This document shows positions 4,701 to 21,153 of a DNA stretch of 64,000 bases, in pieces. This stretch comes from Candidatus Krumholzibacteriota bacterium (GTDB taxonomy: Bacteria > Krumholzibacteriota > Krumholzibacteriia > JAJRXK01). Each line of letters begins with the position of its first letter. Within the stretch, counting starts at the first letter, position 1. The notes under the pieces are model-generated. The model saw only the letters and a list, made by a program, of their open reading frames with translations. It was not told where the DNA came from and ran no database searches. The stretch lies in assembly GCA_963764625.1 (NCBI GenBank), contig CAVXTH010000009.1:960001-1024000 (forward strand). Direction: 5' to 3'. A program made the translations under genes and the position numbers.

Positions 4701-4716
4701 AGGCATGCAGCTTGCA
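4701..4716 (+). promoter_or_regulatory. Putative sigma54 -24/-12 promoter
   Basis: AGGCAT-GCAGC-TTGCA vs consensus TGGCAC-N5-TTGCW; intergenic, 43 nt upstream of ATG 4760. Confidence 0.55.
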
Positions 4717-4759: not shown

Positions 4760-5449
4760 ATGAACTCACGCGCTCTTGACGAGCTTCTGCCCCGACTGCC
4801 CGAAGAAGAACTGACCGAGCGCATGCTCGCCCTGAGGGGCGCGCTCGGCGCCAGGATCCTCGGGATCGCGCGCTGTCTCCACGCAAGCCCTTCAGAGAGC
4901 ACCGGGCTCGTCTTCAGGGTTCTGCAGGTGGTGGATGAGAACGGCGCGTCAAAAACCAAGGAGACTGCTCTCCCCCTCGGCGGATACCGGCGCCTCTTCC
5001 TGGAGGCCCGCTCGATCGCGATCCGCCGCGACTCCGAGGCCCCGCTCGCACGGTGGTTGCGACGCCACGGGGGCGCAGGACTCGTGGGATGGCCCTTCCC
5101 CGGAGACCGAATTCCCTGCGTCGCGTTTCTGGCCTGCGTCGAGGCGAAGTGGCGTCCGGGCGAACTGCGGCTCCGCGTGGCGCGCGAGGGCATGGAAGCC
5201 CTGGCCCGCTGCGTGGGACCGCCGGTTTGGCTACTGCGGTCGCAAGTCACTCCCCAAGATGGGCCCGAGCCGCAAGAGCCGGCACGAGGGCTGAGCCAAC
5301 CGGAGATCGCGCGGCGCGAGGCGGAACTCATCCGACGCGCCCTGCGTCGAGCGCGGGGCAACAAGACTCGAGCGGCCCGCGCCCTCCATCTCAGCCGGCA
5401 GGTCTTCTACCAGAAGCTCAAGCTCCACGGGATTCTGGGGGAGGAGTGA
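4760..5449 (+). CDS. Fis-type HTH (HTH_8) protein lacking an AAA+ domain
   Basis: C-terminus EAELIRRALRRARGNKTRAARALHLSRQVFYQKLKLHGI is a typical NtrC/Fis HTH; no Walker A or GAFTGA. Confidence 0.7.
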   Translation: MNSRALDELLPRLPEEELTERMLALRGALGARILGIARCLHASPSESTGLVFRVLQVVDENGASKTKETALPLGGYRRLFLEARSIAIRRDSEAPLARWLRRHGGAGLVGWPFPGDRIPCVAFLACVEAKWRPGELRLRVAREGMEALARCVGPPVWLLRSQVTPQDGPEPQEPARGLSQPEIARREAELIRRALRRARGNKTRAARALHLSRQVFYQKLKLHGILGEE

Positions 5450-5571: not shown

Positions 5572-7155
5572 ATGCAGCGCATTCGGTTTTGGGCCACCCC
5601 GGAATTTCTCGCGGGCATTTCCAGCGGTCTCTTGCTGAGCGTCGCGGGCGCGCCTTCGCCCGTGGGTTTTCTGGCCTACGTCGCGCTCGTGCCGGTCCTC
5701 TTGGTGCTGTTCCATCCGCGCAATCTGAGGGAAGCGCGTCCCCTGCGGCTCAAAGTTCTCATCCTGTCATTTGGCCTGAGCCACCATCTGAGCGAGCTCT
5801 ACTGGCTCCTGCAGCTGGATGCCGCGGCCTCCATGAAGTTCCGATGGCTCCTCTTGCCGATGGGTCTGATTCTTCTCGCTCTTTACATGACCGTCTTCGA
5901 TGGCCTCGTGTTCTGGGTCAGTTCGAAACTGCGCAATCGCTATCACGAGCAAGCCATCTGGTGGTTCCCCATCGTCTGGGTGGTGGCGGAGTGGATCGAG
6001 GGCTCGGGAGAATTGGGGTTCCCCTGGATGCGTCTGGCGATGACGCAACTGCATTACGTCCCGATCCTGCAAGTGGCTGGGATCTTCGGCGAGCTCGGGT
6101 TGAGCTGGTTCGTCGCGGTGACGAACGTACTCTTGGCGGTAACCTGGCTCTCGCTGCGAGGAGAGTTTCCGCGACTCGGTCGCGCAGTGCTCCACCGCTG
6201 GTGGGCGCTCGTCGCTCTCGTTCTGTTGTTCGGAGTGACTCTGGCGTACGGGGTCCACACGATGCGTACTCTGGAGAGCCCGGTGGGTCCGGGGGAGGGC
6301 TTGCGCGTAGGCATCATCCAGGGAAATGTCTCGCTCATGGACAAGTTCGATTCGGCGCGACGTGATTCGACCTTCATCCCCTACACCCGCCTCAGCGAGG
6401 AAGCGGCCGACGAAGGGGCACGTCTGGTGGTGTGGCCGGAGACGGCCGTCCCCCTCGACGTGCTGAGGGCGCCACGCTATCTGATGATTCTTAAGGACCT
6501 GGTCGAGAACAAGAACATCTATCTCCTCACCGGTTTTCCCGAGCGGGAGATCGAAACGGACGGATCGCTACTCCGCTACAATTCCTCCTTGCTGATGGAT
6601 GATGCGGGAGCGGTTCGGGCGCGCTATCGGAAGATGCACCTTCTACCCTTCGGGGAGCGCATGCCGTTTCAGAGCGTCTTTCCGTTTCTCGGCAAGCTCG
6701 ATTTCGGTCAGGCCGAATGGGACCCGGGACCCGGGCGCACTATTTTCGAAGTCGACGGCTATCGCTTCGCCAATCTCATCTGCTTCGAATCGATCTTCTC
6801 GGGTCCGAGTCGCGACGCGGTGCGCAAGGGAGCCGAGATTCTGGTGAACATGAGCAACGACGGCTGGTTTGGAAGAACTCTGGGCCCGTATCAGCATGGA
6901 CTCATGGGAGTCATGCGTTCGGCGGAGAACCGGGTTCCCACCGTGCGATGCTCCAACAACGGAATTTGCTTCTTCGCTCTGGCGAGCGGACGCGTGGTCG
7001 ATCAGACTCGTCTGCAAGAGCGCGTATTCATCGTGAGAACTCTCCATCCCAATTCGAGCGCGTCGCCCTACACCCGATGGGGAGAGCTTCCTCTGGCGCT
7101 CTTCCTCTTGTTTCAGGTGATCACTCTGGCCTTCGTGAGTCGAAGGCCCCACTGA
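5572..7155 (+). CDS. lnt: Apolipoprotein N-acyltransferase
   Basis: Multi-TM N-terminus with GFPW; nitrilase triad motifs WPE, YRKMHLLPFGE, ICFES; NDGWFG. Confidence 0.95.
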   Translation: MQRIRFWATPEFLAGISSGLLLSVAGAPSPVGFLAYVALVPVLLVLFHPRNLREARPLRLKVLILSFGLSHHLSELYWLLQLDAAASMKFRWLLLPMGLILLALYMTVFDGLVFWVSSKLRNRYHEQAIWWFPIVWVVAEWIEGSGELGFPWMRLAMTQLHYVPILQVAGIFGELGLSWFVAVTNVLLAVTWLSLRGEFPRLGRAVLHRWWALVALVLLFGVTLAYGVHTMRTLESPVGPGEGLRVGIIQGNVSLMDKFDSARRDSTFIPYTRLSEEAADEGARLVVWPETAVPLDVLRAPRYLMILKDLVENKNIYLLTGFPEREIETDGSLLRYNSSLLMDDAGAVRARYRKMHLLPFGERMPFQSVFPFLGKLDFGQAEWDPGPGRTIFEVDGYRFANLICFESIFSGPSRDAVRKGAEILVNMSNDGWFGRTLGPYQHGLMGVMRSAENRVPTVRCSNNGICFFALASGRVVDQTRLQERVFIVRTLHPNSSASPYTRWGELPLALFLLFQVITLAFVSRRPH

Positions 7156-7156
7156 G

Positions 7157-7830
7157 ATGCGCGTCATGGAAGCCAGAGAGAAACTACCGATCGCCGTCCT
7201 GTTGAGCGGCACCGGTCGAACCCTGGCGAACCTGCTCGACAAGATCCAAACGGAAGCCTTGCCGGTGCGGATCGTGGCGGTGGCCAGCGACCGAAAAGAC
7301 GTTCGTGGCTTGAAGTGGCGGCGGCCGCCGGCGTCCCCGCGAGGGTCTTTCGCAAAGCGGAATACGTGGGGCGCCGCGAACGCGATGCGGAGCTGTTCAA
7401 GTGGGTGCGTGAGCAGGGAGCGCACGTGCTCTGCCTCGCGGGCTATCTCTCCCTCCTCGACCTCTCGGCCAGCCATGGCCTCCCCGTTTTGAACATTCAC
7501 CCTGCGCTCCTTCCTCGCTTTGGAGGTGCCGGTTTCTACGGTGACCGCGTCCACGCCGCGGTGTTGGCGGCAAAAGAGAAGGAGAGCGGAGCGACGGTGC
7601 ATCTGGTCGACGAGAACTACGACGAGGGCCAAATTCTGGCCCGCATCAAGGTTCCGGTACTGCCTGGGGACGATCTCGCCGCGCTGCGTGCCCGTGTGTT
7701 CGAGGCCGAATGTAGGCTCTACCCCGGGGTCCTGCGCTGGGTCGCCGAGGGGAGCTTGAAACTGCGGGCGAACCGGGTCTCGGGAAAATCTGGACCTTGG
7801 GAACCACTCACTCTGCGCCATGGGGAATGA
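7157..7830 (+). CDS. purN: Phosphoribosylglycinamide formyltransferase (1-nt frameshift near 7312)
   Basis: IAVLLSGTGRTL in one frame; CLAGY, LNIHPALLP, SGATVHLVDENYDEG in the next; a missing G in TTG[G]AAGTG restores VRGLEVAAAAG. Confidence 0.88.
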
Positions 7831-7861
7831 TCGAGAAGCGATCGGGTGGGGGTGGGGCGGG

Positions 7862-8002
7862 CACAAAAAAATCCGCCGGAGGACGAAAATGGAGGACTCC
7901 AGAACTACACTCACCACACGATCTCTGGGGGGGACGACTTTGTGGTGAGCCCGAATTCGTTCTGACCTTCTCCACTCCGCCCTCCGGCGAAATCGAGTTC
8001 GT
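7862..8002 (-). ncRNA. Candidate structured small RNA (rod-like hairpin ending in a U7 tract)
   Basis: Minus-strand fold: 22-bp stem (7991-7970 with 7894-7872, 4 G-U pairs), 6-bp stem (7964-7959 with 7905-7900), 10-bp stem (7950-7941 with 7918-7909), C7-containing loop, U7 at 7871-7865; sigma54 site directly upstream. Confidence 0.6.
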
Positions 8003-8012
8003 AGCACCACAA

Positions 8013-8028
8013 AGCAACCCGGATGCCA
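8013..8028 (-). promoter_or_regulatory. sigma54 -24/-12 promoter
   Basis: Minus strand TGGCAT-CCGGG-TTGCT, near-perfect consensus; predicted +1 near 8002. Confidence 0.7.
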
Positions 8029-8145
8029 CCTGGAAATCGGGAGCGGCTTCGGGGACGACGGGGTACTCTGGGGAATCATGGGGAAGCACTGCGGAGCGCC
8101 TCGGGGGTGAACCACGGAGCGACCAGGATGCAGGGGGTAGAGCCG

Positions 8146-8883
8146 ATGTTCACTTTGCACGGTCGAAAGGCGCTCATCACCGGAGGGGGAAGTGGGATCG
8201 GCGCGGCCACCGCCCGCCAGCTCAGCCGGGCCGGCGCCTCCGTCTTTCTCGTGGGCCGTACCGAGAGTAAACTGCTCGCGGTGCAAACCGAGATCGAGAA
8301 CGAAGGACGCAGCGCGGCCATTCTATCGGCCGATCTGTACGAACCCGACGCGCCCGCCTCGATCGTACGAGAGGCGGCGGCGAGCCTGGGTGGACTCGAT
8401 CTCCTCGTGAACAACGCGGCCGTCTATCGTCCCGGCCCCGTGGCCGAGCTCGAGCTCTCTCAGTGGCAGGCGCATTTCGATTTGAACGTGCGCGCCCCGT
8501 TTCTGCTGTGCCAGGCAGCCCATCCCTGGCTTGCCGCGGCGAACGACGCCGTGGTCGTGAACGTGCTCACCAATCTCGCGCATCGCCCGGTGCCGGGGGT
8601 CGCCGCCTACAGCGCGTCCAAGGCGGCTCTGCTCTCCTTGGGACAGACTCTGGCGCTGGAATGGGCGAAGGATGGCATTCGCGTGGTCAGCGTGAGCCCG
8701 GGAGTGGTGCAGACTCCCATCCACCGGGGAGCCGACATCAGCTCCGCCGCGAAGATGCATCCGCTCGGCCGCATTGGCACCGCGGAGGAAGTGGCGGCCG
8801 CGATTCTCTTTCTCGCCACGAGCGAATCTGGCTGGACCACCGGAAGCGATCTGTGCGTCGACGGGGGATTGCATCTGGCATGA
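8146..8883 (+). CDS. Classical short-chain dehydrogenase/reductase (possible pterin/sepiapterin reductase)
   Basis: TGGGSGIG, LVNNAA, YSASK, VSPG; start 8146 (or 8128). Pterin role inferred from context only. Confidence 0.88.
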   Translation: MFTLHGRKALITGGGSGIGAATARQLSRAGASVFLVGRTESKLLAVQTEIENEGRSAAILSADLYEPDAPASIVREAAASLGGLDLLVNNAAVYRPGPVAELELSQWQAHFDLNVRAPFLLCQAAHPWLAAANDAVVVNVLTNLAHRPVPGVAAYSASKAALLSLGQTLALEWAKDGIRVVSVSPGVVQTPIHRGADISSAAKMHPLGRIGTAEEVAAAILFLATSESGWTTGSDLCVDGGLHLA

Positions 8884-9018
8884 GCGAGAGTTCCCGGCGC
8901 GCGTTCCTGCGGGTCGTGGCGGGGGCGGGCCGAGAATCATATCCTGTGAAAACTTTTGCGAATCGTCGTCAGGAAAACCCTAGTCGATCTCGGCTCCGCT
9001 CTTTGAGGAGGCTTTCTG

Positions 9019-15832: not shown

Positions 15833-16410
15833 ACACTCCGGCGCAGCAGAGCCTCTGGGAGAGGGCCAAGCTGATCGAGGCCCTCATTCTGGACGTCGAC
15901 GGAGTCCTAACCGACGGGCAGCTCTATTACGGGGAGGCGGGAGAATCGCTGCGCGCGTTCAGCGTGCGTGACGGCCTCGGCCTGGCCTTGCTCACCGAGG
16001 CGGGATATCGTGTCGGCATCATCAGCGGACGCGAGAGCGCTACGGTGCGCTCGCGAGCGCGAGAACTCGCGATCGACCCGGTGCTCCTGGGCCAGAACGA
16101 CAAGGCTGCCGCACTCGAGGAGGTGCTTCGCGCCTGGAATCTGCCCGCGAGCAAGGTCGCGGCCATGGGGGATGACATCCTGGATGCTCCCCTGCTCTCC
16201 CGCGTAGGCGTGAGCCTGTCTCCTCGCGACGCGCAGGAGGAAATTCTCGCCCGGGTCGATCTCGTCACGCGCGCGGCCGGAGGGAAGGGAGCGGTGCGCG
16301 AGGCGTGCGAGTGGCTCTTGAGAGCCAGTGGCCGCTGGGATCCAATCCTAAGACGTCTCTCCCTCCATGAGGACCAATCGTGGAAAACGCCACCAACCAC
16401 CACCGTCTGA
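15829..16410 (+). CDS. kdsC: KDO 8-phosphate phosphatase (HAD)
   Basis: LDVDGVLTDG, RDGLG, MGDD, GGKGAVRE. Confidence 0.94.
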   Translation: MNTPAQQSLWERAKLIEALILDVDGVLTDGQLYYGEAGESLRAFSVRDGLGLALLTEAGYRVGIISGRESATVRSRARELAIDPVLLGQNDKAAALEEVLRAWNLPASKVAAMGDDILDAPLLSRVGVSLSPRDAQEEILARVDLVTRAAGGKGAVREACEWLLRASGRWDPILRRLSLHEDQSWKTPPTTTV

Positions 16411-17438
16411 CCCCGGCGCGGGCGGACCTGCACAAGGCGGCGCAGACCCCCGACGAGGAAGTGCTCGCCATGGGACACGCCGTGTTCGACGAAGAGGCGC
16501 GCGCGCTCCAGGCAACGGGTTCGCGCCTTTCGTCCAGCTTCGCGGCCGCAGTGCGGCGCATCCTGGAATGCCAGGGTCGGGTGTTGGTCACGGGATTGGG
16601 CAAGAGCGGGTTGGTGGGTCGTAAACTGGCCGCCACCTTCACCAGCACGGGAACCCCCGCGCTCTTCGTCCATCCAGTGGAGGCGCTGCACGGCGATCTG
16701 GGGATCGCGAGCGAGAACGACCTGGTACTGGCCGTCTCCCGCAGCGGCCACAATCCCGAGCTCCTGACCATGGTGTACTCCCTCAGGGCGCTGGGACTGA
16801 GCTCGATTGCCATGACCGGAGTGCCCGATTCCCCCTTGGGGAAGGCGGTGGAGATCGTCCTGGACACCGCGGTGGAGCGCGAAGTCTGTCCCCTGAACCT
16901 GACCCCCACCACCAGCTCGACTGCGGCCATGGTCATGGGGGATGCCCTCACGGTGGCCCTCTTGCGCTTGCGGGCCTTCAAGCGGGAGGACTTCGCGGTC
17001 TTCCATCCCAGCGGAAGTCTAGGCCGTACCCTGAGTCTGACGGTGGGAGAGCTCATGCACACCGATGAGGAACTCCCGGTGGTGCGGCAGGACCAGCCCC
17101 TGCGTGACGCACTGCTCGTCATCGCCAGCAAGCGGTTGGGGTGCAGCTGTGTCATCGACGAGGAGGGGAAGCTGAGCGGCTTCCTCACCAACGGAGATCT
17201 CCAGCGGGTGCTCCTCAACCACACCAGCCCCACCGACGATCCGCTGGGGCAACCGGTGGCGAAATTCATGAGCACGAATCCGCGCACCGTCGAGGCCGCC
17301 TGCCTGGCCCGGGCGGCCCTGAAGAAGATGGAACAGAATCCCAGTGGGCCGATCACGCAGCTGGTGGTGATCGAGGGGGAGCGCCCGGTGGGGCTGCTTC
17401 ACCTCCACGATATTCTGCAACAGGGACTCTCTGGATAG
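16380..17438 (+). CDS. kdsD: Arabinose 5-phosphate isomerase (SIS + CBS, KpsF/GutQ)
   Basis: GLGKSG, HPVEALHGDLG, CPLNLTPTTS, FHPSGSLG, tandem CBS domains. Confidence 0.94.
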   Translation: MENATNHHRLTPARADLHKAAQTPDEEVLAMGHAVFDEEARALQATGSRLSSSFAAAVRRILECQGRVLVTGLGKSGLVGRKLAATFTSTGTPALFVHPVEALHGDLGIASENDLVLAVSRSGHNPELLTMVYSLRALGLSSIAMTGVPDSPLGKAVEIVLDTAVEREVCPLNLTPTTSSTAAMVMGDALTVALLRLRAFKREDFAVFHPSGSLGRTLSLTVGELMHTDEELPVVRQDQPLRDALLVIASKRLGCSCVIDEEGKLSGFLTNGDLQRVLLNHTSPTDDPLGQPVAKFMSTNPRTVEAACLARAALKKMEQNPSGPITQLVVIEGERPVGLLHLHDILQQGLSG

Positions 17439-17440
17439 TC

Positions 17441-17456
17441 TGGCACCATCCTTGCT
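17441..17456 (+). promoter_or_regulatory. Consensus sigma54 site overlapping a sigma70 -35 box
   Basis: TGGCAC-CATCC-TTGCT (17441-17456) runs directly into TTGACA (17456-17461). Confidence 0.7.
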
Positions 17457-17490
17457 TGACACGCGCCCTCCCTCGACGTATCCAATCACT

Positions 17491-18411
17491 ATGGTTTCGG
17501 GCTCTTCACGGGATCTCCGCGACATGCCGGGCCGCAATCGCCGGCTGAGAATGGCCCGCCGCTACGCGTTCTATGCTTCGGTCCGAAGCCTGGCGTGGTT
17601 GCTGCGCCAGTGCCCTCGCACGGTGGCGGTGGGGTTCATGGAGAGTCTCGGGCTTCTGGCCTTCTCTTGTCGCCGCGGCGATCGGAAGATCGCGCTTGCG
17701 CAGCTCGCGTACGCCTTTCCCACCTGGGACGAGGAGACGCGCTTGCAGGCGGCGCGCGCGAGTTTCGTGTTCTTCGGCCGCAATTTGGTGGACTCGGTGC
17801 GCGGGCAGGCCCGAGTGAGGATCGCCCCCGCCGACGAGGAGCGCTTGGCGGGGGTCCAAGAAACCGGCGATCCTGTACTCGTGCTGAGCTTGCACCTGGG
17901 GAGCTGGGAACTCCTGGGCCGGTGGCTGACCGAACGCTTACCCGCCATGGGAGTCGTGACGGCGAATCCCCACAATCACTGGGTCGACGCCTGGCTCGTA
18001 CGGGAACGCGCCGCCTTCGGTCTGCGTAGTTTCGATCGTCGCCGGCATGCGTTGGAAGCGGCACGCTGGCTCAAAAGAGGAGGGTCTCTGGCGGTCATGG
18101 CGGATCATCGCAGCCAGGTGAGCAGCGTGCCCGCGCCGTTCTTCGGGCGATTGGCGCCGACCGCGGTGGGGCCCGGCCGATTGGCGCGGCGCAGCCGAGC
18201 GCGAATCCTGCCGGTGGGTCTGAGGCACGACGGCAAGGAGCACTGGGTGCTGGTGGGAGATGAGGTTCAGTGGGCGGACACACAAGACGATCGCGTCTTG
18301 ACCGCACGGTGTAATGCAGCACTCGAGGCGCTCATTCGGCGCGCGCCTCGTCAATGGACCTGGTTCCACGAACGCTATGGCGAAACGGTGGCTTCGGGGA
18401 TGAACTCATGA
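17491..18411 (+). CDS. Lipid A late acyltransferase (LpxL/HtrB family); start uncertain (17491, 17524 or 17551)
   Basis: LHLGSWE, MADH, PFFG, PRQWTWFHERY; within the Kdo/Lpt operon. Confidence 0.85.
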   Translation: MVSGSSRDLRDMPGRNRRLRMARRYAFYASVRSLAWLLRQCPRTVAVGFMESLGLLAFSCRRGDRKIALAQLAYAFPTWDEETRLQAARASFVFFGRNLVDSVRGQARVRIAPADEERLAGVQETGDPVLVLSLHLGSWELLGRWLTERLPAMGVVTANPHNHWVDAWLVRERAAFGLRSFDRRRHALEAARWLKRGGSLAVMADHRSQVSSVPAPFFGRLAPTAVGPGRLARRSRARILPVGLRHDGKEHWVLVGDEVQWADTQDDRVLTARCNAALEALIRRAPRQWTWFHERYGETVASGMNS

Positions 18412-18965
18412 CGCGTAGGATCTTCGCACTCCTCATCGTCCTCGGCTTGCTTCTGGCCTCGGGCTGCGGCGAGAAGGAAGCGGAATCTCCTTCTCCCACC
18501 ACCGAGTCACCCATTCAGACCATTTACGGCTATCGCACCGTGGAGACCGAGCGCGGACAGATGCGTTGGGAGCTCTTCGGCAATCGGGCCGAGCGCTACG
18601 CGGGCGAGGAGGACCTCCACCTCATCGGAGTGCGCATGTACTTCTACAGCGAGGGAAATCTGAGCGCCACCCTCACCTCAAAGACGGGGAGTGTGAACGA
18701 GAACACGCGCAACATGGTGGCCAAAGGGGACGTGAAGATCGTGACCGAGGACGATCGCACGCTGCAGAGTGAGGTCCTGAACTGGGACAACGAGCGCAGA
18801 ATCATCTCCACTGACCTCTTTTTCCGGGCTACCGACGCTGACAAGGTTTTGACCGGTATCGGCCTGGAGACCGATCCGAAGATGACCGATCTGGTGATCA
18901 AGCAGCAGGTGGAGGGGGATGCTCCCGAGAGTTCCCAGGAATCTGTTGAAGGGGGGCAGAATTGA
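18408..18965 (+). CDS. lptC: LPS export periplasmic protein LptC, lipoprotein type
   Basis: Signal peptide with LLASGC lipobox; [10 protein letters not shown] and LTGIGLE beta-jellyroll motifs; upstream of lptB. Confidence 0.8.
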
Positions 18966-19720
18966 GCGAGGTGGCATGGAAGTCGCTGTCATGTAGAGAA
19001 CTGGTGAAGCAGTACCGCTCGCGGCGCGTTGTGGATGGGGTGTCTCTCCACGTGCGCACGGGCGAAATCGTGGGTCTTTTGGGTCCCAACGGAGCCGGGA
19101 AGACCACGACCTTCTACCAGATGGTGGGCTTCATCAAGCCCAACTCGGGCAAGGTCTTCTTGGGCGAGACCGAGATCACGAGCAAACCGATGTACGTGAG
19201 GGCACGGCTGGGAATCGGCTACCTTCCCCAAGAGGCGTCCGTGTTCCGGCGCATGACGGTCGATGAGAACGTGAGGGCCATCCTGCAGACCATGAAGATC
19301 AGCCGTCAGGAACAGGACCAGAGGTGCGCCTATCTGCTCGAGGAATTGGGGGTGAGCCATCTCAAGTCCGCTAAGGGTTTCGAGCTCTCCGGAGGGGAAC
19401 GGAGACGCGTGGAGATCGCGCGGGCTCTTGCCATCGAGCCCCATTTCATTCTTCTGGACGAACCCTTCGCCGGAATCGACCCCATCGCTCTCAATGACAT
19501 CCAGGACATCGTCGCCGGACTCAAGAAGCGCGGCTTGGGCGTCCTCATCACGGATCACAACGTGAGGGAAACGCTCAGCATCACCGATCGCGCCTACATT
19601 CTTCACGAAGGCAAGATCATGGTGGAGGGAACACCCGACGAGATCGTGAAGGACGTGCAGGCGCGCCGGCTCTACTTGGGTGAGGGATTCCATCTCGAGA
19701 ACACGAGTTCACGCAGCTGA
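18962..19720 (+). CDS. lptB: LPS export ABC ATPase
   Basis: [54 protein letters not shown]. Confidence 0.96.
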
Positions 19721-19731
19721 GAGGCTATCGC

Positions 19732-21153
19732 ATGGAGATGAAGCACGTATTGAGTCAGCGGATGGGTCAACGACTCGTCATGACTCCCAAGCTGCAACAG
19801 GCTCTCAAGCTCTTGCAGGTTCCCACCCTGGAACTCGAACAGATTCTCAAGCAAGAAATCCTGATGAATCCCTTGCTCGAAGAGATCGAGCCGGCGGAGG
19901 ACGAGGAGGAAGTCGAAGCTTCCGAGAACGACACTTCGAATGGAGACGAGAAAGACAACAGCGACAAAAACGGAGATCCGGTGGATTGGGAAGAGTACTT
20001 CAGTGACGGTTTCAGCCAGACTGGTTTCGAAGGGGAACGGGAGGAGATCGACGACCGCTTCGAGCGCGTCGCGGTCGCGCCGGAAAACGGCTACGAGAAA
20101 CTTTCGGTTCAGCTGCATCTGAATCTCAACGACGAGCTGGAGATCCAGATCGGCGAGTACATCATCGGAAGCCTCAACGAAGACGGTTTCTTGAGCTGCG
20201 AACTGAGCGAGGTGGCACGACAATTCGAGGTGGAAGAGGAGAAGGCCGAGCGGGTGCTGCGCGTCATTCAGGCCTTCGATCCTCCGGGGATCGGCGCGCG
20301 CAGCCTGCGGGAATCCCTGATTCTCCAGCTCACGGCGCTGGGCGAGGGCGACGGACTGGCCGCCACCATCGTCCGGGACCATTTCGAAGCGCTCAAGAAC
20401 CGCAAATTCAACGAAATCGCCAAGGAGATGCATCTCACCGCTCAGGACGTCCAGGCGATTGCGCTCGAAATCGGTCAACTCGATCCCCGCCCCGGTCTCT
20501 CCACCTTCGGGGAGGACGCCAAGTACGTCGTTCCCGATCTCATCGTCGAGAGGGTCGAGGGAGAGTACATCGTCTATCTCAACGACAGCAACATTCCCCG
20601 CCTTCGAGTCAGCCGCGCCTATCGCGAGGAGCTCGCTCGCAGCCGGCAGCAGGGAGACAAGGAGACCAGGGAATTCATCGTGGGCAAGCTGAACTCCGCG
20701 CGTTGGCTCATTCAGACCATCGAGCAGCGGCGGCGGACGATCGTCAAAGTGATGCAGTGCATCGTCGAGGAGCAGGAGGAATTTTTCGAGAAGGGAGCGG
20801 TGGCTTTGAAGCCGTTGACTCTCCAGCAGGTGGCAAATCGAATCGGCATGCACGAATCGACGGTGAGTCGCGTCACCACCAACAAGTATGTCCAGACTCC
20901 GCGTGGTGTCTTCGAGTTGAAGTACTTCTTCAGCTCCAGTCTCGATACCGACGATGGCGAAAACATGTCTTCGAAAGCAGCGAAAATCCGAATCCAGGGC
21001 ATCATCAGCAAGGAGGAGAAGAACCGGCCTCTCAGCGACCAAAAAATTGTGGATCTACTCAAGGTCGAGGGCTTGAACATCGCCCGGAGGACCGTGGCGA
21101 AGTACCGCGAACAACTGGGAATTCTGCCCGCGCGGATGCGTAAGACCTACTAG
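19732..21153 (+). CDS. rpoN: RNA polymerase sigma-54 factor
   Basis: MTPKLQQALKLLQ, HESTVSR, RpoN box ARRTVAKYRE. Confidence 0.98.
   Translation: MEMKHVLSQRMGQRLVMTPKLQQALKLLQVPTLELEQILKQEILMNPLLEEIEPAEDEEEVEASENDTSNGDEKDNSDKNGDPVDWEEYFSDGFSQTGFEGEREEIDDRFERVAVAPENGYEKLSVQLHLNLNDELEIQIGEYIIGSLNEDGFLSCELSEVARQFEVEEEKAERVLRVIQAFDPPGIGARSLRESLILQLTALGEGDGLAATIVRDHFEALKNRKFNEIAKEMHLTAQDVQAIALEIGQLDPRPGLSTFGEDAKYVVPDLIVERVEGEYIVYLNDSNIPRLRVSRAYREELARSRQQGDKETREFIVGKLNSARWLIQTIEQRRRTIVKVMQCIVEEQEEFFEKGAVALKPLTLQQVANRIGMHESTVSRVTTNKYVQTPRGVFELKYFFSSSLDTDDGENMSSKAAKIRIQGIISKEEKNRPLSDQKIVDLLKVEGLNIARRTVAKYREQLGILPARMRKTY

What the first reader, a model, noticed from the sequence alone, without database searches (positions are those of the whole stretch)
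7862..8028. Unannotated sigma54-dependent rod-shaped small RNA on the minus strand
Seen: in the purN-SDR gap, minus-strand TGGCAT-CCGGG-TTGCT (8028-8013) predicts +1 near 8002, with no credible minus-strand gene downstream. The next ~140 nt fold into one rod: 22-bp stem, 5x5 internal loop, 6-bp stem, 8x3 bulge, 10-bp stem and a 22-nt loop with CCCCCCC, followed by U7. Five G-U pairs work only on the minus strand (A-C on plus), so promoter, fold polarity and U-tract agree. It lacks the SRP helix-8 motif and is shorter than canonical 6S RNA. Inference: a new sRNA, either a 6S-like polymerase/protein decoy tied to sigma54 or a trans-acting RNA whose C-rich loop pairs with G-rich ribosome-binding sites.
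Basis: partly seen in the sequence, partly recalled or inferred. Interest (0 to 1): 0.85.

Follow-up and report, generated by a model that had tools for sequence, protein, structure and literature searches.

The report
Sigma-54 small RNA with poly-C loop
This is a real, single-copy gene for a small hairpin RNA of about 139 bases, found in one order of the uncultured bacterial phylum Krumholzibacteriota; it sits behind a sigma-54 promoter and carries an unchanging C-rich tip, so it is a new example of a known type of regulator, with unknown targets.

Summary
On the minus strand, a -24/-12 box (8028-8013) is followed by a ~139-nt rod hairpin (8002-7864) that ends in U7. It folds at -68.5 kcal/mol (z -6.0).

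What the searches showed:
- It is single-copy in its genome and has no Rfam match. The genome has its own 6S and SRP RNAs elsewhere.
- Homologues sit at the same locus (purN> <RNA, then divergent SDR/PTPS/folE) in all 10 genomes of the order, which spans 4 genera. Metagenome contigs add more. None was found in 141-142 other genomes of the class or phylum.
- The -24/-12 box is present in 11 of 11 distinct homologues, with a variable spacer.
- Stems covary: 17 of 39 pairs show compensatory changes, and 93% of cells are paired.
- There are 50 G-U cells against 5 A-C, which fixes the strand.
- The apical loop GUCGUCCCCCC(C)A is invariant.
- The genome has rpoN and 17 strong enhancer-binding proteins. 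Hfq was not found.

My reading is a sigma-54-dependent trans-acting sRNA that probably pairs through its C-run with G-rich mRNA sites, as sX13 and 6C do. No target could be identified: every strong candidate was specific to this genome. No RNA sequencing run was available. A 6S-like decoy role is not supported. It is a new member of a known kind.

The parts
8013..8028 (-). Sigma-54 type promoter: TGGCAT (-24 element, 8028-8023), 5-nt spacer, TTGCT (-12 element, 8017-8013)
   Evidence: Sequence. GGCA[CT]-N5-TTGC[AT] is kept in 11 of 11 distinct homologues, with a variable spacer (CCGGG, CTCCA, CCCCA, GGCCA, ACACG, ATGCG, ACCGG, GCCCA, GCCCG). Genome-wide the motif has 20 sites, 16 of them in the 17.5% of the genome outside crude ORFs. 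rpoN and 17 strong bEBP genes are present.
7864..8002 (-). Predicted sRNA transcript of about 139 nt, from the inferred +1 (about 8002) to the end of the U-tract
   Evidence: The covariance-model match spans G000:C9:967864-968002, which is window 7864-8002 (152.9 bits). The +1 is inferred from the promoter geometry and is not mapped.
7970..7991 (-). 5' arm of the basal stem (pairs with 7894-7872)
   Evidence: MFE. Helix 1 has 15 modelled pairs: 4 with compensatory changes, 94.5% of cells paired. In G007, G008 and G009 the sequence changes (GGAGGGCG to GGAGCGCG or CCGGGCG) with matching changes on the 3' arm.
7872..7894 (-). 3' arm of the basal stem; together with the U-tract it forms the intrinsic terminator
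7959..7965 (-). 5' arm of the middle stem (pairs with 7905-7899), flanked by a 4x4 and an 8x3 internal loop
   Evidence: Helix 3: 4 of 6 pairs have compensatory changes.
7941..7950 (-). 5' arm of the upper stem (pairs with 7918-7909)
   Evidence: Helix 4: 7 of 15 pairs have compensatory changes and 97.3% of cells are paired. Examples are CUCACCAC, CUCAUCAC, CUUGCUAC, UCUGCCAC and CUGAAGGC, each with a matching 3' arm.
7919..7940 (-). Apical loop region AAAGUCGUCCCCCCCAGAGAUC, with C7 at 7933-7927: the sequence-invariant candidate effector site
   Evidence: AGUCGUCCCCCCCA is identical in 11 of 11 aligned sequences. G009 has C6. The C-run is predicted unpaired (P >= 0.89) in 9 of 11 homologues.
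7865..7871 (-). U7 tract of the terminator
   Evidence: A U-rich tail is present in 8 of 11 homologues and is weak or absent in G007, G008 and G009.
8069..8085 (-). Direct repeat TTCCCCA-TGA-TTCCCCA, 42-58 nt upstream of the -24 element. It could be an enhancer or accessory site, or the promoter of the divergent SDR gene; its function is unknown.
   Evidence: It is conserved in the five genomes of genus g1 only and is unique among the 20 sigma-54-like sites of the genome.
7157..7830 (+). Neighbour: purN, convergent with the RNA. In this assembly it is split over two frames.
   Evidence: Pfam Formyl_trans_N hits both halves. There is a 1-nt gap against G002 near 7308. Synteny.
8146..8883 (+). 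Neighbour: short-chain dehydrogenase gene, divergent from the RNA and followed by PTPS (two copies) and folE
   Evidence: Pfam; synteny.

Best explanation
Window 8028-7864 (minus strand) is a self-contained gene for a small non-coding RNA of about 139 nt.

Inferred with good support:
- RNA polymerase carrying sigma-54, switched on by an enhancer-binding protein I could not identify, starts at about 8002.
- The whole transcript folds into one interrupted rod hairpin.
- The basal stem plus U7 also serves as the intrinsic terminator.

Inferred by analogy, not shown:
- The rod displays an invariant 22-nt tip whose seven cytosines are single-stranded.
- This tip is the working part. It base-pairs in trans with G-rich stretches, probably at or near ribosome-binding sites, of mRNAs.
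- Pairing changes their translation or stability, without Hfq, as the C-rich loops of Xanthomonas sX13 and actinobacterial 6C do.
For: Gene and structure:
- The fold is at z -5.96.
- The element is single-copy in the 3.57-Mb genome.
- Homologues are present in 10 of 10 genomes of its order (4 genera). Nine come from covariance-model searches. The tenth, G009, was found by pattern and synteny.
- All 10 homologues lie at the same locus.
- 6 of 6 metagenome contigs that carry the loop 19-mer also match the model.
- An independent MAFFT/RNAalifold run on 7 sequences predicts the same rod, with 12 of 39 pairs compensatory.
- On 10 sequences, 93.2% of cells are paired against 82.5% in shuffles (0 of 500 reach it). 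17 of 39 pairs have double changes. Slid controls give 39-49%.

Strand:
- There are 50 G-U cells against 5 A-C cells. That is 93.2% paired on this strand against 81.5% on the other.
- The model scores 146-153 bits on this strand against 23-28 bits on the reverse.

Sigma-54:
- The GG and GC elements and TTGC[AT] are kept in 11 of 11 homologues, while the spacer and flanks diverge.
- In eight 12-kb homologous loci the motif occurs 11 times, 8 of them at this gene.
- The motif is strongly intergenic genome-wide, at 16 of 20 sites.
- rpoN is complete, with AID, CBD and DBD domains, at window 19732-21153. There are 17 bEBP AAA+ matches above 200 bits.
- No sigma-70-like site was found in 7000-9000.

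Mechanism:
- The loop is invariant while the stems change.
- The C-run is unpaired (P >= 0.89) in 9 of 11 homologues.
- The genome uses Shine-Dalgarno sites: GGAGG and GGAG peak at -15 to -6.
- Hfq was not found in this 96%-complete genome.
- C-rich loops that pair with G-rich sites without Hfq are documented for sX13 (PMC3771888, abstract) and 6C (PMC6486639, abstract).
Against: - No transcript evidence exists for this organism.
- No enhancer site or cognate bEBP was identified. The nearest conserved upstream block is genus-specific.
- Target evidence is absent. The loop pairs with crude translation-start windows no better than 10 shuffled loops: 57 windows at <= -22 kcal/mol against 36-191, and best -29.0 against -26.2 to -35.1.
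- G6+ runs upstream of starts number 22 of 2502, no more than C6+ runs at 25.
- The 12-nt perfect complement of the loop occurs outside the gene itself in only 5 of 10 genomes, and never at a shared place.
- The three best-looking sites failed on inspection. One was an artefact of crude start calls (inside a coding region upstream of glmS). Two were specific to this genome: the tRNA-Sec leader and the pheS start region.
- An 18-22-nt invariant loop is longer than a usual seed, which fits recognition by a protein as well.
- In G007, G008 and G009 the U-tract is weak. In G008 and G009 the C-run can pair internally, with unpaired P of 0.20 and 0.45.
Confidence: 0.6

Rival explanations
1. It is the same sigma-54-driven RNA gene, but the invariant tip is a protein-binding site. 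The RNA would then titrate or scaffold an RNA-binding protein instead of pairing with mRNAs.
For: About 18 consecutive loop positions are invariant across four genera, including positions that are not C. That is more than a 6-9-nt seed needs. No conserved complementary target was found.
Against: There is no candidate protein. The neighbours are housekeeping enzymes: lnt, purN, SDR, PTPS and folE. CsrA was found only below its cut-off (19.8 against 27 bits) and the loop has no GGA motif. Only one binding site per RNA is unusual for known sponge RNAs (recalled).
Confidence: 0.2
2. It is a 6S-like decoy that mimics promoter DNA and sequesters the sigma-54 holoenzyme.
For: The RNA is rod-shaped with internal loops and sits behind a sigma-54 promoter.
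Against: There is no match to 6S (RF00013) even at E <= 10. A canonical 6S RNA scoring 55.7 bits lies at C6:723021-723200. The RNA is about 139 nt, against the 187-position model. The internal loops differ in size and sequence between genera, whereas the conserved part is the terminal loop.
Confidence: 0.03
3. It is a cis-acting element rather than a free sRNA. It could be a plus-strand leader or riboswitch of the SDR-PTPS-folE operon, a terminator for purN, or a promoter whose read-through transcript acts antisense to purN.
For: It always lies between purN and the PTPS/folE cluster. In G009 the 3' part comes within a few tens of bases of the end of purN. The U-tract is weak in G007, G008 and G009.
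Against: On the plus strand 50 G-U cells become A-C mismatches, and the reverse strand scores only 23-28 bits. The plus strand has no U-run after the stem. In G005 about 3.3 kb separates the RNA from purN. An invariant loop is not needed for a terminator. All genes of the neighbourhood are syntenic across the order, so the linkage carries little weight.
Confidence: 0.07
4. It is not an RNA gene: a conserved DNA palindrome (protein-binding or recombination site), or a mobile repeat.
For: An imperfect palindrome folds on both strands.
Against: It is single-copy in every genome searched, with no repeats or target-site duplications. Compensatory changes with G-U asymmetry show selection at the RNA level on one strand.
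Confidence: 0.03

Closest known systems
sX13 sRNA of Xanthomonas (PMC3771888; abstract read)
   Same: It has apical C-rich loops on stable stems. Repression needs the C motifs and G-rich motifs near translation starts, and Hfq is dispensable. Here the C-run is also exposed on a stem and Hfq was not found.
   Different: sX13 has three hairpins with 4C motifs. This RNA has one long rod with a single C7 loop. There is no sequence or model similarity, with no Rfam hit at E <= 10. It comes from a different phylum. I know of no sigma-54 promoter reported for sX13 (recalled).
6C sRNA of Actinobacteria (PMC6486639; abstract read)
   Same: Its C-rich loops bind several mRNAs directly through G-C pairing, independently of chaperones, in a high-GC genome.
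   Different: 6C has several C-rich loops and a different fold and taxon. There is no match to it in Rfam. I know of no sigma-54 dependence for 6C (recalled).
Sigma-54/EBP-dependent non-coding RNAs: the four ncRNAs of the Desulfovibrio vulgaris regulome (PMC4641369; passages read), GlmY/GlmZ (PMC3045617) and Qrr (PMC10162802) (search listing and start of abstract only)
   Same: It is a stand-alone RNA gene behind a -24/-12 promoter in a genome rich in enhancer-binding proteins.
   Different: In D. vulgaris, three of the four listed ncRNAs are named by position beside their EBP gene. Here no EBP gene lies within 6 kb in the loci examined. This is based only on tblastn with the window's genes and Pfam of window ORFs, not on a full annotation of the relatives. 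There is no sequence similarity, and the architecture is a single hairpin.
6S RNA (Rfam RF00013)
   Same: An elongated, largely double-stranded RNA with internal loops.
   Different: The RNA is shorter (about 139 nt), it does not match the model, its internal loops are not conserved, and the genome already has a canonical 6S.

Membership tests
6S RNA (RF00013) | Match to the family covariance model | tested here: not met
   No hit in the window at gathering score or at E <= 10 in 7700-8200. The genome's 6S is at C6:723021-723200, 55.7 bits.
6S RNA (RF00013) | A conserved large central bubble flanked by closing stems that mimics an open promoter | tested here: not met
   The internal loops are 4x4 and 8x3 in G000 and differ in the other genera. 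The conservation is in the terminal loop.
Bacterial SRP RNA (RF00169) | Match to the model / helix-8 motif | tested here: not met
   No hit. The SRP RNA is at C6:293681-293779, 77.8 bits.
Sigma-54-dependent sRNA (functional class) | A -24 GG and a -12 GC element with the canonical spacing, upstream of the RNA | tested here: met
   TGGCAT-N5-TTGCT at 8028-8013, kept in 11 of 11 homologues.
Sigma-54-dependent sRNA (functional class) | The organism encodes sigma-54 and enhancer-binding proteins | tested here: met
   rpoN has all three domains. There are 17 strong PF00158 matches.
Sigma-54-dependent sRNA (functional class) | An upstream activator site and a cognate EBP | tested here: inconclusive
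   Only a genus-specific direct repeat was found, at 8085-8069. No EBP could be assigned.
Sigma-54-dependent sRNA (functional class) | A transcript that starts at the predicted +1 and depends on rpoN | not testable with these tools
   No RNA run was listed for this sequence, and the organism is uncultured.
C-rich-loop, G-rich-target sRNAs (sX13 / 6C type, by mechanism) | A single-stranded C-run in an apical loop | tested here: met
   Unpaired probability is >= 0.89 in 9 of 11 homologues.
C-rich-loop, G-rich-target sRNAs (sX13 / 6C type, by mechanism) | G-rich complementary motifs at translation starts of target mRNAs | tested here: inconclusive
   There is no excess over shuffled loops and no conserved site. 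The gene starts were crude.
C-rich-loop, G-rich-target sRNAs (sX13 / 6C type, by mechanism) | Homology to the sX13 or 6C families | tested here: not met
   No Rfam family matched at E <= 10 apart from two chance hits, H19_3 and MIR6459.
Dispersed repeat (MITE/REP) | Many copies per genome | tested here: not met
   There is one significant match in the own genome; the next best has E 0.59 over 16 nt. Each of 9 genomes has one forward-strand model match.
Rho-independent terminator | A GC-rich stem directly followed by a U-tract | tested here: met
   for this genome. A U-rich tail is present in 8 of 11 homologues.

The most novel reading that the evidence does not exclude
The invariant 18-22-nt tip on a long double-stranded rod is not an mRNA seed. 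It is a dedicated binding site for a protein of the sigma-54 circuit (the holoenzyme, an enhancer-binding protein or a partner). That would make this a feedback or decoy RNA for sigma-54 transcription, a role for which no RNA is known.
Probability: 0.06. Interest if true: 0.85.

Novelty: new member of a known kind. Interest (0 to 1): 0.45.

Why it matters
Krumholzibacteriota have no cultured member. The titles and abstract openings of the 20 top-listed of 68 papers naming the phylum mention no regulatory RNA (listing only). This is a well-supported candidate for a first regulatory RNA there, with promoter, structure, strand and terminator all backed by comparative evidence.

It adds a lineage to the recurring pairing of sigma-54 control with C-rich-loop sRNAs. 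It also offers a compact test case: the whole RNA is a single hairpin, the terminator stem carries the effector loop, and the effector site is sharply defined. It does not reveal a new principle, and its targets and inducing signal are unknown.

Tried and rejected
- **Expression:** The look-up of sequencing runs listed 19 DNA holders (salt-marsh, soil and wetland metagenomes) and no RNA holder.
- **Rfam:** nothing at gathering score. At E <= 10 there were only H19_3 and MIR6459, far below their thresholds.
- **Wider homologues:** model R1 found no match at E <= 0.01 in 142 genomes of other families in a phylum sample. Model R2 found no match at E <= 0.05 in 141 genomes of other families in a class sample. 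Both runs used Infernal's stricter filters, and the genomes are a sample. At the PTPS loci of four genomes from other families there was no -24/-12 box and no C6+ run.
- **Chance hit:** L031, a MAG labelled Phycisphaerae with the exact loop 19-mer, matches only model positions 65-84. I treat it as a chance hit.
- **Genome-wide duplex scan:** I scanned 27,755 windows containing G4. The energies form a continuous tail (-37.1, -36.1, -36.0 and so on) with no outlier except the gene's own antisense.
- **Translation-start scan:** not better than 10 shuffled loops. G6+ runs are not enriched. Gene starts came from a crude GC3-based ORF picker, which was wrong for glmS, overlapped a tRNA and missed pheS.
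- **Candidate near glmS:** the G8 run lies inside the upstream phosphoglucosamine-mutase-like coding region, about 210 nt before the real MCGI start.
- **Candidate at C6:109369:** it is the leader and 5' end of tRNA-Sec. The complementarity is present in G000 only, among the 9 genomes examined.
- **Candidate C6:11844:** a 14-nt perfect complement in a non-coding stretch, absent from G002 and G003.
- **Candidate pheS start region:** 20 pairs at -36.1 kcal/mol in G000. In G002 and G003 it is -25.5, and in the other six family genomes read it is -18.7 to -31.1. The G007 contig is cut, so it was left out.
- **SDR start region:** the G5 run before the SDR start in G000 is not kept in G002 or G001 (read).
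- **Alignments:** MAFFT alignment A3 misaligned G007 and G008. A5 mixed in reverse-strand matches. Neither was used for counting. G008 and G009 are therefore not in the pair counts.
- **Earlier notes of this scan:** none for this place or this sequence.

Full report
**1. What is in the sequence**

Read on the minus strand, the purN-SDR gap contains TGGCAT-CCGGG-TTGCT at 8028-8013. This has the spacing of a sigma-54 promoter, with GG at -24 and GC at -12. If the C of TTGC is -12, transcription starts at about 8002.

The following ~140 nt fold into one interrupted hairpin at -68.5 kcal/mol. The shuffles average -44.8, z is -5.96, and 0 of 200 shuffles fold as well. Its parts are:
- a 22-pair basal stem
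- a 4x4 internal loop
- a 7-pair stem
- an 8x3 internal loop
- a 10-pair stem
- a 22-nt apical region, AAAGUCGUCCCCCCCAGAGAUC, with C7 at 7933-7927
- U7 at 7871-7865

The plus strand folds less well (-53.9 kcal/mol, z -3.96). The consensus scan marks the 3' end as terminator-like and finds no sigma-70-type site in 7000-9000.

The flanking genes are on the plus strand:
- lnt, 5572-7155
- purN, 7157-7830
- an SDR gene, with its likely start at 8146
- two PTPS genes
- folE

The minus-strand ORFs that overlap the element have no Pfam match.

**2. It is not a known RNA and not a repeat**

Rfam gives nothing for the whole window at gathering score. At E <= 10 around the element it gives only two chance matches.

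The genome (3.57 Mb in 9 contigs, 96% complete) holds a canonical 6S RNA (55.7 bits) and an SRP RNA (77.8 bits) elsewhere.

The element is single-copy. The next-best BLAST match in the genome is 16 nt long at E 0.59.

**3. Relatives**

Record titles of loci that share the exact loop 19-mer place the organism in Candidatus Krumholzibacteriota.

BLAST found homologues in 4 of 4 genomes of the same genus and in 2 other genera. A covariance model built from these 7 sequences found matches in 9 of the 10 genomes of the family, which is also the whole order in this collection.

The tenth genome, G009, has a diverged copy with a C6 loop at the syntenic site. I found it by pattern and by locating folE.

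Outside the family:
- No match in 142 genomes of other families in a phylum sample at E <= 0.01.
- No match in 141 genomes of other families in a class sample at E <= 0.05, with a second, broader model.
- These are samples scored with strict filters, so 'not found in those searched' is the correct wording.

A metagenome scan for the 19-mer gave 6 contigs. All 6 match the model: two are cut by a contig end, and two are identical copies of a new variant. One MAG labelled Phycisphaerae shares only the 19-mer and no hairpin, so I treat it as a chance hit.

In all 10 genomes the order is lnt...purN> <RNA, followed by a divergent (SDR)-PTPS-PTPS-folE cluster. G005 has about 3.3 kb inserted between the RNA and purN. 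The whole neighbourhood is syntenic, so this linkage says little about function.

PheS proteins of the most distant family members are only 65-69% identical to that of this genome. Unconstrained intergenic DNA should be scrambled at that distance. The sequences flanking the element are indeed unalignable between genera.

**4. RNA-level selection, and on which strand**

RNAalifold on a MAFFT alignment of 7 sequences predicts the same rod independently. In 12 of its 39 pairs, both sides have changed and the pair is kept.

On a model-guided alignment of 10 distinct sequences:
- 93.2% of cells form standard pairs, against 82.5% in shuffles (0 of 500 reach it).
- 17 of 39 pairs carry double changes (shuffle mean 9.4; 0 of 500).
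- Sliding the partners by 1-3 columns gives 39-49% pairing.

That alignment is fitted to the structure and the sequences are related, so these figures are support, not probabilities. G008 and G009 are not in these counts.

The upper stem runs through five different sequences with matching partners. The basal stem changes in genus g4 with compensating changes.

G-U cells outnumber A-C cells 50 to 5, so the structure is 93.2% paired on the minus strand and 81.5% on the plus strand. Reverse-strand model scores are 23-28 bits, against 146-153 bits. A 1-nt length difference between sequences that are 89% identical argues against coding.

**5. The promoter**

GGCA[CT]-N5-TTGC[AT] is present in 11 of 11 distinct homologues. 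Nine different spacers occur, and the upstream flanks diverge. The motif lies 16-28 nt before the basal stem.

In the eight 12-kb homologous loci, a slightly relaxed motif occurs 11 times on both strands, and 8 of those are this promoter.

In this genome the strict 16-nt consensus has 7 sites. Base composition predicts about 5 (my arithmetic), so a single match means little by itself. However, of the 20 sites of GGCAY-N5-TTGCW, 16 lie in the 17.5% of the genome outside my crude ORF set, mostly 10-250 nt before a gene on the same strand. The sRNA's own site was counted as 'coding' only because the SDR ORF was over-extended. The motif is therefore a genuine intergenic signal here.

The genome has a complete rpoN and 17 strong enhancer-binding-protein ATPase domains. 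I could not assign an activator. The only conserved upstream block, TTCCCCA-TGA-TTCCCCA at 8085-8069, is confined to genus g1 and is unique among the 20 sites. It may equally belong to the divergent SDR promoter.

**6. How it probably works**

Shown by comparison:
- It is a stand-alone, single-copy RNA gene.
- It has a conserved sigma-54-type promoter.
- Its rod structure is under selection.
- It has a terminator-like 3' end: a U-rich tail in 8 of 11 homologues, weak in genus g4.
- Its tip does not change (AGUCGUCCCCCCCA identical in 11 of 11 aligned sequences; C6 in G009).

The C-run is predicted to be single-stranded in 9 of 11 homologues. The genome uses Shine-Dalgarno sites. Hfq was not found, and CsrA appears only below its threshold.

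By analogy with sX13 and 6C (abstracts), the tip most likely pairs with G-rich mRNA sites without a chaperone.

I could not show this. The scans gave no excess over shuffled loops, no enrichment of G-runs before starts and no conserved long complement. Each attractive site turned out to be an artefact of crude start calls or private to this genome.

The length of the invariant tip, and its internal pairing option in G008 and G009, keep a protein-binding role open.

**7. Comparison with what is known**

Sigma-54-dependent regulatory RNAs are an established kind:
- four ncRNAs in the Desulfovibrio vulgaris regulome (PMC4641369, passages)
- GlmY/GlmZ and Qrr (listing)

NcS25 of Burkholderia also came up in that listing, but the abstract I read does not state its promoter type, so I do not count it here.

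C-rich-loop sRNAs are established as well. Earlier notes of this scan report similar sigma-54/C-rich-loop RNAs in other phyla. Those are unchecked leads, not evidence.

This RNA shares no detectable homology with any of them. It differs in being a single long hairpin whose terminator stem carries the effector loop. It is a new family within a known kind.

The titles and abstract openings of the top 20 of 68 listed papers on Krumholzibacteriota mention no regulatory RNA (listing only; no full text was opened).

**8. Verdict**

I put the existence of a conserved structured RNA gene on the minus strand at about 0.9, and sigma-54 dependence at about 0.85. Trans base-pairing through the C-run gets about 0.5.

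Overall confidence in the combined statement is 0.6. Interest is moderate.

Noticed in passing
window 7157-7830 (+): purN is split over two reading frames: Pfam Formyl_trans_N positions 3-61 in 7157-7492 and 46-181 in 7315-7830. There is a 1-nt gap relative to G002 near 7308. This is either a real frameshift or an assembly error. In G002 the two halves appear to lie in one frame (spacing of the tblastn hits).
   Followed up: partly
window 17441-17456 (+): A second strict -24/-12 box, TGGCACCATCCTTGCT, lies between a kdsD-like gene (SIS+CBS, 16380-17438) and the run lipid-A acyltransferase, lptC, lptB, rpoN (17452-21153). This suggests that sigma-54 may drive the operon that contains its own gene.
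   Followed up: partly
window 4702-4716 (+) and 4760-5449 (+): GGCATGCAGCTTGCA lies 58 nt before a 229-aa protein that has only a C-terminal Fis-type HTH_8 domain. The gene is syntenic (purM, this gene, lnt) in seven of the eight homologous loci examined (no hit in G005's locus). A -24/-12 box lies upstream of it in G002 and G003 as well, but in none of the other loci examined.
   Followed up: partly
G000 whole genome: GGCAY-N5-TTGCW has 20 sites, 16 of them outside crude ORFs. This is about the same number as the 17 strong enhancer-binding-protein genes. Several sites have no nearby downstream gene in my crude set (C4:40148, C6:889192, C6:607505) and could mark further RNAs or genes I missed.
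   Followed up: no
window 8069-8085 (-): The direct repeat TTCCCCA-TGA-TTCCCCA lies upstream of the sRNA promoter. It is conserved in genus g1 only and is not found upstream of the other 19 promoter-like sites.
   Followed up: partly
L042 (G008) and L095:3788-3925 (G009): In genus g4 the RNA carries an internal GGGGCGAC that can pair with the conserved GUCGUCCCC of the tip. The predicted unpaired probability of the C-run drops to 0.20 and 0.45. This could be an internal mimic of the target site or an alternative fold.
   Followed up: no
G000:C6:11740-12130: This is a non-coding stretch of about 390 nt, of visibly lower GC (by eye), upstream of an AhpD/carboxymuconolactone-decarboxylase-like gene (named from its N-terminal sequence by recall, not scanned). 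It contains a 14-nt perfect complement to the sRNA loop. The complement is not found in the closest relatives.
   Followed up: partly
G000:C6:109369-109460: A tRNA-Sec gene (73.3 bits) is present here, and 9 of the 10 genomes of the family have a match above the cut-off. These organisms therefore probably use selenocysteine.
   Followed up: no
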